Shown: piece after piece, positions 3,001 to 9,000 of the stretch | Numbering within the stretch: the stretch's first letter is position 1 | Layout: every line of letters begins with the position of its first letter | Assembly: GCF_032062105.1 (NCBI RefSeq) | Contig: NW_026925603.1 | Location: 124,001-188,000 of the forward strand | Length of the DNA stretch: 64,000 nucleotides | Direction of reading: 5' to 3' | Origin: Saccostrea cucullata | Lineage: Eukaryota | Program-made: the position numbers

Positions 3001-6000
3001 GGAAGATGATTTTTTTAACATCTACAAGTATATACAAATTGCATTAGATTTAAACTTTGAATTTACATTTTTTTTAATCTACCTATTTATTGCATGATTT
3101 AATGTAGATTGTCCTTTGGTATCAAAGAAGATTCCTCTACAACGGTTACAGACCAAACAAGTAAGATAGAGGCAAATTAGTCATGTGCTTATGAACATTA
3201 GTCCTTTGAGTATAATGCTTTCTGGTCATATATTGTACTGATGAGAATTGGATTGCTTTAATTTGGCTTCAAATCAATAAATAATTGAAAATGTCTTGAG
3301 TCAATCAAATTTACATGTGGTTGCCTACAATCTGTTAATTACGTGTACATGTATTATATATATGCATCACGTTTCTCCTTTATTACAGTACACATGTGTT
3401 TGGACAAGCCAGAATTTAACGGCAAAACTGTTAACAGAATCAACAATGTAGACATAGGGACCATCTCAAAAGGGGGAAAGGTGAGAATGTCCCATTAACA
3501 TAAGTTCTGTTTCGACCAAACACAGTTTACTTTTGTCATTAGTTTACATTTCGTCATGAGACCGATGTATGTTCCTGAGTGAGAATTTACTTTTTATTTC
3601 ATACATGTATTTACTTTATTCTTTAATATTTCTTTAAATTCTTAAAAAAAAAAATATGAAACATATTCATAACCATGCATTTACATGTATGTGCAGAAGT
3701 TCAGTTTTGAAGTGTCAATTTTCAATGGAAACTTGATCTGGTAGAAATTCTCTATTTGAATAGGGAACAAAAAAGATGAGGAATCTCTATATTGGAAATA
3801 ATATGTATAATATTAGAATATTCAGTGTGTATTTAGAATATTTCAGCAGTGAACCAGCTTAGAATGAGAATTAAAAGGTTTATTTAGTTGAAGATTAATT
3901 TTTTTCATATAAAATGAATATAGTTTAACATACTTATTTGATTAGAAAAGACCTTTATGAATAGTTCCCTATTTCGCAGTATTGTAATACATACTTTCTA
4001 AATTTTCTGCTCAAAAAGCCTTTGAATATCAAAATATTTCACACTCTTAATTTTTTCAAACAGTGCTCCAGAAAGCTGTACATCAAAAACTTGCAAACAG
4101 GAACACGTAGCGTGTGTTTTAAGGTAACTATAATGCAAGAAACTTGATTAAAGCTTTGCAGTTTATGGAGCGTAAACTGCCCCAAGTTACATTGTTTTGT
4201 ATAACGTAGCTAGGTTAAAATGAATTTCATTCCTTAAAATTTAAGATCAGTGTAGACAATAAGACAATTTTTCCTCCAAAAATGCTTCAAATTCAGCATA
4301 TTTTTAGTATTAATGTCAAGTGGAGTCATATGTTTTTGACGTAACTCTTTGTGATTTAGGCAACTTATGTTATACAATATAAAATGATTTTTCTTATCCA
4401 ATCAAATGACTTGTTACAACTAAAATTAAATTCTAATGAAATCTGTTGGGATTATATCAGTCTCAACAAACAGCAGTAGCAGCCTGTAGCAAATGAAGGC
4501 TGTAATGGCTCGACTCTTGTGTGTTGTTTATATAGGTAGAGTATGAGGTTTCCATAGCGACCAAACAAGGCCCCGTAACGTGTTCCTGTCAGAAGGAGGA
4601 GGAGATTTCTCTTAATATCGTCAATCCTTTCGAAGTCTCCGTCAAACTGCTCTCCATGAAGGTAAAACACTTCACAGTCTGTAGTACACAGAAATTACCA
4701 CACAATCTTGAGAAATATCAAGAGGCAACATTGTCAAAAACAATTAATACATTTTTTAAAGTTCATTCCATTATTAAAGTGGTTTTTAGTTGTGTATTTC
4801 ACGTATTAAATTGCTTCATTGGCTTATCGATGTAGTGATGTACATATGTATTTTGTAATTCTTATGCTTTCAATCCTAGTATTCACCTTTTACATAGAAT
4901 ATTTGGCACTGCTATACATTTCCATCTGCAATAATTATGTATTATATCAAAGTCGTTTGTTTTTTATATTTAAAAAAAAGTCATTCATTTTATTCTCTTG
5001 TTCCTGCAATTTTCCAAAATTAATAAAATGAGATTTATCTGCTACAGTTTGAGGCCCTGGACACAGTGCAGATTCAGGAGCCATTTTTACTGAGTCCCGA
5101 ACTGAACTGTACGTCACCATGGACAATAGAGATATCAACTAGTCACCTCAATCTGGTGAGTCAGGGTAAAACTAGAGACAATAGAGATATCAACTAGTCA
5201 CCTCAATCTGGTGAGTCAGGGTAAAACTAGAGACAATAGAGATATCAACAAGTCACCTCAATCTGGTGAGTCAGGGTAAAACTAGAGACAATAAAGATAT
5301 CAACAAGTCACCTCAATCTGGTGAGTCAGGATAATACTAGAGACAATAGAGATATCAACAAGTCACCTTAATCTGGTGAGTCAGGGTAATACTAGAGACA
5401 ATAGAGATATCAACAACTCACCTTAATCTGGTGAGTCAGGGTAATACTAGAGACAATAGAGATATCAACAACTCACCTCAATCTGGTGAGTCAGGGTAAA
5501 ACTAGAGACAATAGAGATATCAACTAGTCACCTCAATCTGGTGAGTCAGGGTAAAACTAGAGACAATAGAGATCTCAACAACTCACCTCAATCTGGTGAG
5601 TCGGTAAAACTAGAGACAAAAGAAAAATCAACTAATGACCTCAATCTTGTCAACAAGTCACCTCAATCTGGTGAGTCAGGGTAAAACTAGAGATAATAGA
5701 GATAAGTTACATTAATCTGATGAGTCAGTGTAAAACTAGAAACAATAGAGATATCATCTAGTCACCTCTTAATCTCCCATGCAGAGTTGTCATTTGTTCC
5801 TCTCTCAGACACCTCTGCAATGGACTCATGTCAAGATTTTTTACATAACGTATAAAACGTGATATTAACAGGACTTTTTCAAATTAAATTAATAGTTCTT
5901 GATTGGTTTAATAAATATCTATCTTAAACATCAGCCATAAGCATGGGAATTGAATTACAATGAATTAAAACAAACAGACTATTTCTTGTGTTTATCACTG

Positions 6001-9000
6001 TGATATACGCAAGCCAATGACAGAGGTGAATGTATGAGCCGATAGTAGAGAGTGGTCACCTCAATCTGGTGAGTCAGGGTAAAACTAGAGACAATAGAGA
6101 TATCAACAACTCACCTCAATCTGGTGAGTCAGGGTAAAACTAGAGACAACAGAGATATCAACTAGTCACCTCAATCTGATGAGTCAGGGTAAATCTAGAG
6201 ACAATAGAGATATCAACAAGTCACCTCAATCTGGTGAGTCGGGGTAAAACTAGAGACAATAGAGATATCAACTAGTCACCTCAATCTGATGAGTCAGGGT
6301 AAATCTAGAGACAATAGAGATATCACCTAGTCACCTCAATCTGGTGAGTCAGGGTAAAACTAGACACAATAGATATATCACCTAGTTTCCTCAATCTGGT
6401 GAGTCAGGGTAAAACTAGACACAACTGGGCTGCATTCAAAATCCTAGCGGCTAACCTAGCAGCTAGGTGTTAGATATCTATCTTTACTGAACAGACAGCT
6501 AACCTAGCAGCTAAGTGTTAAAGTTTGAATAAAAATATATAAATAATAATTTATTTTTGGGACACAAAAAGTTTATTTCAAGCGAAAATAAATATGTAAA
6601 TTTACATTTGATTCACTAAGATAAATAAAATAAACCTCCTTTTTGTTAAAACCTTATGTACTGCAAACTTGTAACTAAGGAAACCATCTTGGATTTTGGA
6701 CGTAGCATTAAATACTTATGCTAGCTCTCCATACATAGCGGCTAGGCTAGCTTTCCGTTCAAGAGCGTAGCTTTACGTAGCGGATACGTAGCAGCTACGC
6801 TGTTGAACGCACCCCAGAGATATCAACTAGTCACTTCAATCTGGTGAGTCAGGGTAAATCTAGAGACAATAGAGATATCAACTAGTCACCTCAATCTGGT
6901 GAGTCTGGGTAAATCTAGAGACAATAGAGATATCAACAAGTCACCTCAATCTGGTGAGTCAGGGTAAAACTAGAGACAATAGAGATATCAACTAGTCACC
7001 TCAATCTGATGAGTCAGGGTAAATCTAGACACAATAGAGATATCAACTAGTCACCTCAATCTGATGAGTCAGGGTAAAACTAGACACAATAGAGATATCA
7101 CCTAGTCACCTCAATCTGGTGAGTCAGGGTAAAACTAGACACAACAGAGATATCAACTAGTCACTTCAATCTGGTGAGTCAGGGTAAATCTAGAGACAAT
7201 AGAGATATCAACTAGTCACCTCAATCTGGTGAGTCTGGGTAAATCTAGAGACAATAGAGATATCAACTAGTCACCTCAATCTGGTGAGTCAGGGTAAATC
7301 TAGAGACAATAGAGATCTCAACAACTCACCTCAATCTGGTGAGTCAGGGTAAAACTAGAGACAATAGAGATATCAACTAGTCACCTCAATCTGGTGAGTC
7401 AGGGTAAAACTAGAGACAATAGAGATATCAACAAGTCATCTCAGTCTGGTGAGTTGGGGAAAATCTAGAGACAATAGAGATATCAACTAGTCATCACAAT
7501 TTGGTGAGTCAGGGTAAAACTAGAGACAATAGAGATATCAACAAGTCATCTCAGTCTGGTGAGTTGGGGAAAATCTAGAGACAATAGAGATATCAACTAG
7601 TCATCACAATTTGGTGAGTCAGGGTAAAACTAGACACAATATAGATATCAGCAAGTGACCTCAATCTGGTGAGTCAGGGTAAAACTAGACGTCACAATAG
7701 AGATATCAACTAGTCACCTCAGTCTGGTGAGTCAGGGTTAAACTAGAGACAATAGAGATAAGTCACCTCAATCTGATGAGTCAGGGTAAAACTAGAGACG
7801 ATATGGATATCAAGTAGTCACCTAAATCTGAAGAGTTAATGTAGAACTAGAGAAATAGAGATCTTTAACTATTACTTTATATATATTTCAGACATCCAGC
7901 ATCAGTCATGTAGATAAAACTACTCAGTCACAGCTGCAAAATGGTAAGTGGACAATAGCTAAACATGACAGGTCTTGATATTGAACATCATGGGTAATGC
8001 AGAAGCTTGTTTTTGAAGTATAGGCTGTACTTATAACAGTTGGCTTTGTTTCAGTCAGGCCTTGTTTCAGTTCTTTTTTCTGAAATTCAGCGTACATATT
8101 TGTCTTGTTTCAGTGTCGCTGAATAAGTCAGAGTGTGCCACTGAGTGCATCTGTCTGACGGCAGTTAACCCCACTCCATCAGCCGTGTCCCTAGGAACAT
8201 ACTCTATTTCATGGAGACGGTAAATTAAAATTTATTTTTGATCTTCAAATCTGTTTTTTTATGAGGTTATTCATGTACAGATCATTAGGATATCATCTTT
8301 AAACTCAGTACATTTACAATCTGTAGTTTATTTGATTTTGAACAGTTTTTAAAATCTTTCTTTTTATGTCTAATATGAACTTTGTAAATTTTAATTATTT
8401 TGACATCCAGTTCTTCATCAAGTGTGTGCTTATTAATAAAAACATTTTACATTAACCTTTTAAAACAGGAAAACAGGTGAGGACACTCCGTATGTGGACA
8501 CCATGTTCCCCCTGCCTACTGTCAATACAGAGTACATTCCCTTGTCTGTGGAGCTAAGACTCCCGGCCTATGGCATGGTTAAGTCCCTTCTACCATTAAC
8601 ATACATTCTCTACAATCGCACTCCATACCCCCAGGAAATAGAACTCACCATGGACACGAACGACTGCTTCATGTTCTCAGGAAACAAAGAGGTAAAAGTC
8701 AGGCAGATTGATTCTTTAGAGCAACTCTCCACTGCCTTTCAAACATATCTCTTTGAATTATTTTTTTCAAATGACAACTATACCATCCTTTTTTCTTTGC
8801 TTTGACAGGAAATGTTTCTAGTAGACCCTTATGATTCTTGGCAAGCCAAGGTTTCTGAAATAATTTATCATTTTAAATAAATTATTCTGCCTGTAGATTT
8901 AATTGTGAATAACTTTTGTTGTAGTTTCACTTCCGAGTCTTGCCAGGGGTGCCGTACGAATTAAAGTACAACTTGTTTCCCTTGGTGGCAGGTCACGTTA

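What the first reader, a model, noticed from the sequence alone, without database searches (positions are those of the whole stretch)
5122..7865. About 38 decoy GTGAGT donors fill a 2.7-kb TRAPPC11 intron
The 55-bp unit is 34 nt of exon plus 21 nt of intron, and most copies keep CTG|GTGAGT. Read-through of the first donor reaches TAG within the next unit, so downstream donors would give truncated or NMD products. The array runs to within ~30 nt of the next acceptor, so the intron is mostly junction copies. Two later insertions show it is real and old enough to collect TEs.
Basis: seen in the sequence. Interest (0 to 1): 0.72.

Follow-up and report, generated by a model that had tools for sequence, protein, structure and literature searches.

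The report
Splice-donor minisatellite in oyster TRAPPC11 intron
A 55-base piece spanning an exon-intron border of an oyster TRAPPC11 gene has been copied about 37 times in a row, filling the intron with 29 intact spare splice-start signals that look like silent passengers, and similar border-copy arrays sit in all four spliced genes of this stretch.

Summary
The window is oyster DNA (Saccostrea-like, not human, no N). Exon 5048-5155 of TRAPPC11 ends CTG|GTGAGT. The last 34 exon nt plus the first 21 intron nt form a 55-bp unit repeated about 37 times (5122-7862). That gives 30 GTGAGT (1 authentic, 29 decoys), 6 GATGAGT and 1 GAAGAGT. Two insertions interrupt the array (5769-6054, 6426-6815). 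It ends 28 nt before the acceptor.

Read-through meets TAG after 13 codons. Ortholog proteins join the exons at the first donor. The donor hexamer is not significantly better conserved than the rest of the unit, and its +1 G is one of the more variable columns. A neutral VNTR is therefore not rejected.

This kind is known. The human F7 IVS7, IFI6, CBS, LMNB2 and PDGF minisatellites also start on an exon-intron border, and only the upstream-most site is normally used.

The new point is recurrence. At least seven more junction-spanning arrays lie in the same 64 kb (TRAPPC11, trichoplein, ASPDH-like, ANAPC7). That is more than a geometry-aware random model expects (2.6 of 11 expected, 6-7 seen, P 0.004-0.02).

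Verdict: new member of a known kind, moderate interest.

The parts
5048..5155 (+). TRAPPC11 exon (36 codons, phase 0), equal to residues 892-927 of the S. cucullata TRAPPC11-like protein P0001. Its last 34 nt are the exon part of repeat unit 1.
   Evidence: tblastn of P0001 against the window. Junction call by length arithmetic, corrected by hand for the upstream junction 4661/5048. Sequence read.
5156..5161 (+). Authentic 5' splice site GTGAGT, preceded by CTG.
   Evidence: P0001 continues directly from ...STSHLNL to TSSISHV..., encoded at 7892. P0005 (a Crassostrea-like transcript-derived protein) and P0007 (Sinanodonta) have the same length across this junction.
5122..7862 (+). 55-bp minisatellite of about 37 units. 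Unit 1 spans the exon-intron junction. There are 29 intact decoy GTGAGT, 6 GATGAGT and 1 GAAGAGT.
   Evidence: TRF, in-register parse, motif counts. Block duplications at offsets 110, 330 and 720 nt. Mean pairwise identity of 31 ungapped units is 0.911.
5769..6054 (.). Insertion 1, 286 nt of non-repeat DNA flanked by the 8-bp direct duplication GTCACCTC (5761-5768 and 6055-6062). Removing it and one copy of the duplication restores a 55-nt unit.
   Evidence: No terminal inverted repeat and no other copy in the window. Element family not identified.
6426..6815 (.). Insertion 2, 390 nt, rich in inverted repeats (MITE or foldback-like). It sits between CACAAC and AGAGATATC of a unit whose uninterrupted paralogue is the unit at 7140-7194.
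   Evidence: the 330-nt block duplication becomes offset 720 across the insertion. 11 inverted-repeat pairs, the longest 29 nt at 83%. No other copy in the window.
7863..7891 (+). Unique 3' tail of the intron, with a candidate branch site TTAAC at 7865-7869, a T/A-rich tract and the acceptor AG at 7890-7891.
   Evidence: The branch site is inferred from the motif only.
7892..7943 (+). Next TRAPPC11 exon (TSSISHVDKTTQSQLQN, plus 1 nt).
   Evidence: tblastn gives 100% over 17 residues. Junction call.

Best explanation
This is a lineage-specific minisatellite born from a tandem duplication of a 55-bp segment that straddles an exon-intron border of TRAPPC11 (34 nt of exon plus 21 nt of intron). 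It then grew to about 37 units by unequal exchange or slippage, including multi-unit block duplications. Every unit carried a copy of the 5' splice site along passively. The gene still works because the spliceosome takes the upstream-most donor, the one that closes the exon. That is exon definition or 5'-to-3' scanning, as shown experimentally for the human F7 IVS7 minisatellite. The 29 intact downstream copies stay silent inside the intron, and if one were ever used the transcript would carry a stop 13 codons later. The array is most likely neutral baggage. It has inflated an originally very short intron (about 50-60 nt of non-array sequence remain) to 2736 nt and later collected two insertions. 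Shown here: anatomy, counts, frame consequences, ancestral status of the exon end, secondary nature of the insertions, lack of extra conservation of the donor. Inferred: exclusive use of the first donor in this animal, the growth mechanism, neutrality.
For: Unit 1 is continuous with the exon, and the exon end is ancestral: two other bivalve TRAPPC11 proteins have the same length there. The named S. cucullata protein joins the exons at the first donor. The donor hexamer is not more conserved than the rest (17 of 55 and 8 of 55 cyclic windows are as good or better), and G+1 to A occurs in 6 units. The same test on four other junction arrays gives 2 of 35, 15 of 28, 20 of 30 and 9 of 36, so there is no consistent signal. 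Block duplications at 110, 330 and 720 nt show growth by unequal exchange. The distal units are the most decayed (44-52 of 55 matches to unit 1), while units 2, 8 and the one at 7360 are identical to unit 1. Insertion 2 lies in only one copy of the 330-nt block. Precedent comes from PMC1557585, of which I read the abstract, introduction and discussion. It describes minisatellites whose first monomer spans an exon-intron boundary in human F7, 6-16, CBS, LMNB2 and PDGF. In F7 all pseudo-sites are functional, but only the most upstream one is chosen. In the same window a transcript-derived ANAPC7 protein (P0013) uses the first donor or the last acceptor at four such arrays.
Against: No RNA from this species was available, so silence of the decoys is inferred from orthologue protein models. 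P0001 is an NCBI model protein, and P0005 comes from another oyster. In A2 the columns +3 to +6 and -2, -1 never vary. The trichoplein array keeps GT in 37 of 37 units and its hexamer ranks 2nd of 35. Weak purifying selection or strong homogenisation of donor columns therefore cannot be excluded. Junction-spanning arrays are more frequent here than a random-seed model predicts, which pure neutrality does not obviously explain. In-vitro work recalled from memory (duplicated 5' sites, proximity to the 3' site) would predict use of the last intact donor at 7727, only 165 nt from the acceptor.
Confidence: 0.78

Rival explanations
1. Regulated unproductive splicing. The downstream donors are really used at some rate and give stop-containing transcripts that are degraded, so the array tunes TRAPPC11 output.
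For: 28 of the 30 GTGAGT sites keep the full CTG|GTGAGT context and look as strong as, or stronger than, the other 11 TRAPPC11 donors in the window. Every alternative donor yields a TAG 13 codons after the junction with several exon junctions downstream. In human 6-16 and CBS the two nearest pseudo-sites are used, as cited in the introduction of PMC1557585.
Against: There is no extra conservation of the donor columns, and +1 G is lost in 6 units. Arrays of the same build sit in unrelated neighbouring genes, which argues against a gene-specific device. In F7 the pseudo-sites are never used while the first site is intact. No RNA evidence is available.
Confidence: 0.08
2. A functional U1-binding array. 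Reiterated 5' splice-site copies recruit U1 snRNP downstream of the exon. That would strengthen exon definition or suppress premature cleavage and polyadenylation in a long intron that now carries insertions with poly(A) signals.
For: The two insertions carry 3 and 5 sense-strand AATAAA/ATTAAA hexamers, against 1 in all array units. Junction arrays are over-represented in this window. The four ortholog-supported arrays with 7 or more copies and a period under 100 are all junction-spanning, with P 0.002 under the seed model. The U1 effects themselves (telescripting, exon-specific U1) are recalled knowledge and were not checked in a paper here.
Against: The array predates the insertions, so it cannot have arisen to protect them. 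Acceptor-side arrays exist too, and a U1 model does not cover them. The donor columns are not significantly conserved across arrays. Nothing was tested directly.
Confidence: 0.07
3. Assembly artefact. The array length, or its very presence, is produced by mis-assembly of repetitive reads.
For: Tandem arrays are prone to collapse or expansion in assemblies. Only one assembly copy was seen.
Against: The units differ in a structured way: variant units, blocks of 110 and 330 nt, and decay towards the distal end. Two unique insertions sit in register, one with a target duplication. An independent unnamed record (P0012) reads through a junction array at the ANAPC7 donor with a different unit length, so such arrays exist in other data. 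The exact copy number may still be off.
Confidence: 0.03
4. A transposon-borne satellite landed in the intron and only by chance resembles the exon end.
For: The window does hold dispersed satellite-like arrays (147 and 166 nt units at 826-1833 and 51698-53341) that are not tied to junctions.
Against: Unit 1 is the exon end itself, 55 of 55 identical to unit 2. The coded residues are ancestral in other bivalves. The array begins inside the exon, with no flanking element sequence between exon and array.
Confidence: 0.02

Closest known systems
Human F7 intron 7 VNTR (37-bp minisatellite; Borensztajn et al. 2006, PMC1557585; abstract, introduction and discussion read)
   Same: The first monomer spans the exon-intron boundary, so the authentic donor is followed by identical pseudo-donors. 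The normal mRNA uses only the upstream-most site.
   Different: F7 has 5-9 repeats made of 4 nt of exon plus 33 nt of intron. Here there are about 37 repeats of 34 plus 21 nt, 29 intact pseudo-sites, two insertions, and an invertebrate host. Usage and polymorphism are shown for F7 and untested here.
Human interferon-inducible 6-16 (IFI6) intron 2 minisatellite (known to me only as cited in PMC1557585, and from memory)
   Same: A similar number of reiterated donors: 25 pseudo-sites after the authentic one.
   Different: By recall, the 6-16 unit is short and in frame, and per the cited text the two nearest pseudo-sites are used constitutively to give longer proteins. Here the unit is 55 nt (not a multiple of 3) and any alternative use meets a stop. 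The ANAPC7 arrays in this window (30 and 36 nt, in frame) are closer to the 6-16 case.
Human CBS IVS13, LMNB2 and PDGF intron 4 junction minisatellites (as cited in PMC1557585)
   Same: Arrays of 10-20 monomers that reiterate the donor. In LMNB2 and PDGF only the authentic site is used.
   Different: Different genes, unit sizes (up to 81-100 bp) and host. Each is an isolated case in its genome, whereas here several lie within 64 kb.
Ordinary intronic minisatellite / VNTR
   Same: Growth by unequal exchange, block duplications, decay at the far edge, and insertion of mobile DNA.
   Different: An ordinary intronic VNTR does not include exon sequence or a functional splice site in its first unit.
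Intron gain by tandem duplication of an exonic AGGT segment (model recalled from memory, not checked in a paper here)
   Same: A tandem duplication that touches coding sequence is made harmless by splicing.
   Different: Here the acceptor and 29 nt of unique intron tail lie outside the repeat, so the intron pre-existed. The duplication enlarged it and did not create it.

Membership tests
Exon-intron-junction minisatellite with reiterated pseudo-donors (F7 IVS7 type) | Head-to-tail array with a minisatellite-sized period (about 10-100 bp) | tested here: met
   Period 55, about 37 units, 89-94% matches in the sub-arrays.
Exon-intron-junction minisatellite with reiterated pseudo-donors (F7 IVS7 type) | The first monomer spans an exon-intron boundary | tested here: met
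   The array starts at 5122, 34 nt inside exon 5048-5155, and the donor is at 5156.
Exon-intron-junction minisatellite with reiterated pseudo-donors (F7 IVS7 type) | [quoted passage not shown] | tested here: met
   29 further GTGAGT, against 0 GTRAGT in 4814 nt of the other 11 introns.
Exon-intron-junction minisatellite with reiterated pseudo-donors (F7 IVS7 type) | The mature mRNA uses the upstream-most site, and the pseudo-sites are silent or nearly so | tested here: inconclusive
   Orthologue proteins P0001, P0005 and P0007 have no insertion at the junction. No transcript of this gene from this animal was available.
Exon-intron-junction minisatellite with reiterated pseudo-donors (F7 IVS7 type) | Copy number is polymorphic between alleles (VNTR) | not testable with these tools
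   Only one haplotype is in hand and no eukaryotic genome collection was offered. For the ANAPC7 array, an unnamed record (P0012) shows a different unit length.
TRAPPC11 (Gryzun / foie gras family) gene | Gryzun-like C-terminal domain and collinear match to named TRAPPC11 proteins | tested here: met
   PF12742 scores 22.5 bits against a cut-off of 21.3 on exon 8925-9092. 12 collinear exon matches to residues 607-1110 of S. cucullata TRAPPC11-like. Hit proteins carry PF07919, PF11817 and PF12742.
   Insertion 1 has an 8-bp flanking duplication but no terminal inverted repeat. Insertion 2 has many inverted repeats and a precise empty-site paralogue but no clear duplication. Neither has another copy in the window. 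That they are insertions is shown. Their element family is not.

The most novel reading that the evidence does not exclude
Splice-junction minisatellites may be a systematic feature of this oyster genome and not a one-off. In 64 kb, all four spliced genes carry at least one tandem array whose end unit straddles a donor or acceptor: eight arrays in all, plus one that spans the end of an ORF. One ANAPC7 exon is flanked by an acceptor array upstream and a donor array downstream. All short-period arrays that reached 7 or more copies are of this type. This would point either to a duplication or expansion process that is favoured at splice junctions, or to selection for reiterated splice signals. 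It would also make oysters a natural library of dozens to thousands of competing identical splice sites for testing how the spliceosome picks one.
Probability: 0.3. Interest if true: 0.75.

Novelty: new member of a known kind. Interest (0 to 1): 0.48.

Why it matters
Taken alone, the TRAPPC11 array is another and unusually large example of a known curiosity. It has 29 identical strong 5' splice sites lined up behind the real one in a conserved trafficking-complex gene, and the frame penalty for any wrong choice makes it a clean natural test of first-site selection outside mammals.

The broader point is the recurrence of such arrays at donors and acceptors in neighbouring genes. If it holds genome-wide, oysters would offer many natural competition experiments for splice-site choice. 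That would also raise a question about what seeds or expands tandem repeats at exon borders.

There is a practical warning for gene prediction and variant calling in bivalve genomes. Arrays of perfect splice sites and open read-through frames can mislead annotation. An unnamed public protein record (P0012) is exactly such a read-through of the ANAPC7 array.

Tried and rejected
1. RNA hairpin masking the donors. Each unit can pair TCACC with GGTGA, but the authentic unit folds no better than shuffles (z -0.23; 79 of 200 shuffles fold as well). Only the variant units with ACTCACC (5 units by my reading) reach z -1.95 (7 of 200). Not supported.

2. Extra conservation of the donor columns. Tested on five arrays with a cyclic-window rank. 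There was no consistent signal. In one search the ASPDH window was set one base early (GGTAAG).

3. A first enrichment test asked whether a 24-mer across each of 57 junctions recurs within 220 nt, against random positions. Its control was ill-posed, because positions inside arrays and in low-complexity DNA score as hits (6 of 57 junctions against 7-27% of controls). I replaced it with placement tests.

4. Pfam on single short exons gave mostly nothing. PDB sequence searches with three exon translations gave no meaningful hit.

5. The element family of the two insertions could not be named.

The ASPDH junction therefore rests on the open frame, splice signals and those alignment spans only.

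7. A fuzzy-regex parse timed out and was replaced by a dynamic-programming parse.

All protein searches used single-exon translations, and junctions were set by length arithmetic.

9. Literature. Six full-text searches found the human precedents but no paper describing junction-spanning arrays in oysters or other molluscs. Only the listings were seen for everything except PMC1557585.
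Full report
WHAT THE WINDOW IS

The 64-kb window has no N and 34% G+C. Translations of single exons find named oyster proteins:
- TRAPPC11-like of Saccostrea cucullata (P0001, 96% over a 74-residue exon).
- Trichoplein-like of Saccostrea echinata (P0008).
- An ANAPC7-like protein (P0013, unnamed transcript-derived record; its Sinanodonta relative P0014 is named anaphase-promoting complex subunit).

The contig is therefore oyster DNA, of or near the genus Saccostrea. I do not take it for human. All searches were made exon by exon.

THE OBSERVATION

tblastn of P0001 places 12 collinear TRAPPC11 exons on the + strand between 210 and 9092. A short last exon by eye follows at 9338. 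Pfam Gryzun-like passes its cut-off on exon 8925-9092.

The exon in question is 5048-5155, 36 codons, ending CTG|GTGAGT. The next exon starts at 7892, so the intron is 5156-7891, 2736 nt.

TRF reports a 55-bp array over 5122-7862. An in-register parse gives about 37 units, the first being 34 nt of exon plus 21 nt of intron. At the donor position there are 30 GTGAGT (28 of them as CTG|GTGAGT), 6 GATGAGT and 1 GAAGAGT. That makes 29 intact copies behind the authentic site, not about 38. The other 11 TRAPPC11 introns in the window, 4814 nt in all, contain no internal GTRAGT.

Reading through the first donor gives 13 codons and then TAG. Each unit adds 55 nt. The array stops 28 nt before the acceptor AG, and a TTAAC branch-site candidate lies at 7865.

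THE EXON END IS OLDER THAN THE ARRAY

P0001, the Crassostrea-like P0005 and the freshwater mussel P0007 all have the same number of residues across this junction, with related sequence. The array is therefore made of copies of a pre-existing junction. It is not a satellite that was recruited as exon. Without the array and the insertions, only about 50-60 nt of intron remain. I infer that the ancestral intron was very short. The 11-nt partial unit at the far end (7852-7862) could be a pre-existing direct repeat that seeded the first slippage, but this is inference only.

HOW THE ARRAY GREW, AND THE INSERTIONS

The 31 ungapped units are 91% identical on average. Adjacent units are 93% identical. 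Three units are identical to unit 1, and the last units are the most decayed. Near-exact internal duplications occur at offsets of 110 and 330 nt, that is blocks of 2 and 6 units.

Insertion 1 (5769-6054) is flanked by the 8-bp duplication GTCACCTC. Removing it with one duplicate restores a 55-nt unit.

Insertion 2 (6426-6815) splits a unit whose intact paralogue lies 330 nt of array further on. Across the insertion the block offset becomes 720, so the insertion is younger than that block duplication. It is full of inverted repeats.

Neither insertion has another copy in the window, and I could not name the element family.

IS THE DONOR PROTECTED?

In the 31 ungapped units the six donor columns carry 6 variant cells. 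17 of the 55 cyclic six-column windows carry as few or fewer. With 36 aligned units the figures are 7 cells and 8 of 55. The +1 G is changed in 5 of 31 (6 of 36) units, which puts it among the three most variable columns, whereas +3 to +6 never vary. Another five-column run (CTAGA) also never varies.

The same test on other junction arrays in the window gives:

| Array | Cyclic windows with as few or fewer variant cells |
|---|---|
| Trichoplein donor array | 2 of 35 |
| ASPDH-like donor array | 15 of 28 |
| ANAPC7 donor array | 20 of 30 |
| ANAPC7 acceptor array | 9 of 36 |

There is no consistent excess conservation. The variants are also not independent events, because blocks are copied. 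A neutral VNTR is not rejected on sequence. A small hairpin that could mask the donor is no better than shuffled sequence for the authentic unit.

HOW IT MOST LIKELY WORKS

The closest precedent is the human F7 intron 7 minisatellite. Its first 37-bp monomer spans the exon 7 boundary. All pseudo-sites are functional when tested, yet only the most upstream one is chosen, which the authors explain by 5'-to-3' scanning together with exon definition. I read the abstract, introduction and discussion of PMC1557585. The introduction lists further human cases: 6-16 with 25 pseudo-sites, CBS, LMNB2 and PDGF.

I infer the same rule here. The first donor closes the exon, and the rest are intronic passengers. 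Direct support in this window comes from ANAPC7. The transcript-derived P0013 joins exons at the first donor copy (three arrays) and at the last acceptor copy (one array). For TRAPPC11 itself the support is the orthologue proteins only.

Arrays of the same build are listed below. "Intron + exon" or "exon + intron" gives the split of the unit at the junction, where I measured it.

| Array | Coordinates, strand | Unit x copies | What it spans |
|---|---|---|---|
| A1 | 129-241, + | 38 nt x 3 | TRAPPC11 acceptor at 212 (7 nt intron + 31 nt exon) |
| A3 | 13769-15063, + | 35 nt x 37 | Trichoplein donor (14 nt exon + 21 nt intron); GT kept in 37 of 37 |
| A4 | 22241-23311, - | 43 and 28 nt; 26 cores, 24 with GT | Donor of an ASPDH-like gene |
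| A5 | about 56476-56830, - | 36 nt x 9 | ANAPC7 acceptor at 56493 |
| A6 | 56161-56384, - | 30 nt x 7 | Donor at 56373, flanking the same exon as A5 |
| A7 | 58602-58810, - | 76 nt x 3 | ANAPC7 donor |
| A8 | 57560-57641, - | 42 nt x 2, decayed | ANAPC7 donor |
| A9 | 19996-20273, - | 71 nt x 4 | End of the ASPDH-like reading frame |

For A4, Asp_DH_C is found on downstream exons. The junction itself rests on the open frame, the splice signals and 21 unnamed relatives that align over the exon.

Among the 11 TRF arrays (period 17 or more) inside the three orthologue-supported genes, 6 are junction-spanning by TRF coordinates alone. The count is 7 by alignment, which adds A6; A8 is already among the 6, and its second copy is decayed.

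| Null model | Expected | P |
|---|---|---|
| Random placement in present-day gene spans | 1.63 | P(>=6) = 0.0018 |
| Fairer null: arrays collapsed to one unit, wholly exonic seeds excluded | 2.6 | P(>=7) = 0.004; P(>=6) = 0.02 |

Six of the trichoplein junction coordinates were approximate, which only raises the null. Under the fairer null, all four arrays with 7 or more copies being junction-spanning has P = 0.002. The ASPDH arrays were left out of both tests.

Compact genes with short introns therefore explain part of the excess, but apparently not all of it. With one window this remains a lead.

KNOWN OR NEW

As a single locus this is a new and large member of a known kind. Six full-text searches found no report of such arrays in oysters or other molluscs, or of their clustering. 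Only listings were seen apart from PMC1557585, and supplements were not consulted.

WHAT STAYED UNCHECKED

- Transcripts of this species.
- The orthologous intron in other oysters.
- Allelic copy number.
- The genome-wide frequency of junction arrays.
- The family of the two insertions.
- The unnamed ASPDH-like relatives, which I did not fetch.

Noticed in passing
window 13769-15063 (+): A 35-bp x 37 array in the trichoplein-like gene. The unit is 14 nt of exon plus 21 nt of intron (ATGGG|GTAAGG), and all 37 units keep GT. The S. echinata protein P0008 joins 13782 to 15163, so the first donor is used. It is a near twin of the TRAPPC11 array, with the same 21-nt intron share.
   Followed up: yes
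window 56161-56830 (-): One ANAPC7 exon (56493-56373) is flanked upstream by 9 copies of its acceptor junction (36-nt units) and downstream by 7 copies of its donor junction (30-nt units). Both periods are multiples of 3, and the frames I read by eye stay open, so wrong-copy use would add 12 or 10 residues in frame. The transcript-derived P0013 uses the last acceptor and the first donor.
   Followed up: yes
window 22241-23311 (-): An array of 43-nt units, with a 28-nt short form, at a donor of an ASPDH-like gene. 26 cores are present and 24 keep GT. The copies read AAG|GTAAGG, while the last copy, next to unique intron, reads GTACAAGT. The duplication junction itself seems to have created a better-looking donor than the original. 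The unit also holds an acceptor-like CCTACAG|G.
   Followed up: partly
window 129-241 (+): Three 38-nt copies of the acceptor junction (TTTACAG|AGCTAAC...) of the first TRAPPC11 exon in the window. tblastn also matches the middle copy as a decoy (172-204).
   Followed up: partly
window 58602-58810 (-) and protein P0012: A 76-nt x 3 array at another ANAPC7 donor. An unnamed public protein record (P0012, 110 aa) is a read-through of this junction array with units of about 48 nt. The array therefore exists in other data in a different form, and such arrays can be mis-called as proteins.
   Followed up: partly
window 57560-57641 (-): A decayed two-copy (42-nt, 80% matches) duplication across a further ANAPC7 donor (GAT|GTAAGT). 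The second copy no longer has GT in register.
   Followed up: partly
window 19996-20273 (-): A 71-nt x 4 array that repeats the last codons of the ASPDH-like reading frame (...SSMLGK, stop), where the stop overlaps a GGTAAGT motif. Whether this is a coding-end array or another donor array is open.
   Followed up: partly
window 826-1833 and 51698-53341: Longer-period arrays (147 and 166 nt) that do not touch junctions. By eye the 166-nt unit shares a stretch with sequence near 23640-23670, which suggests a dispersed element-borne satellite. Not tested.
   Followed up: no
window 25402-26511 (+), 32330-32631 (-), 39305-39787 (+), 46051-46359 (+): One long open frame (370 aa) and several shorter ones that look by eye like reverse-transcriptase remnants of retroelements, in the gene-poor middle of the window. 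Not run against any family library.
   Followed up: no
window 41386-42921 (+): A single uninterrupted 512-codon open frame that looks by eye like a multi-pass membrane transporter. A 23-nt x 2 repeat (42907-42950) overlaps its end. Not tested.
   Followed up: no
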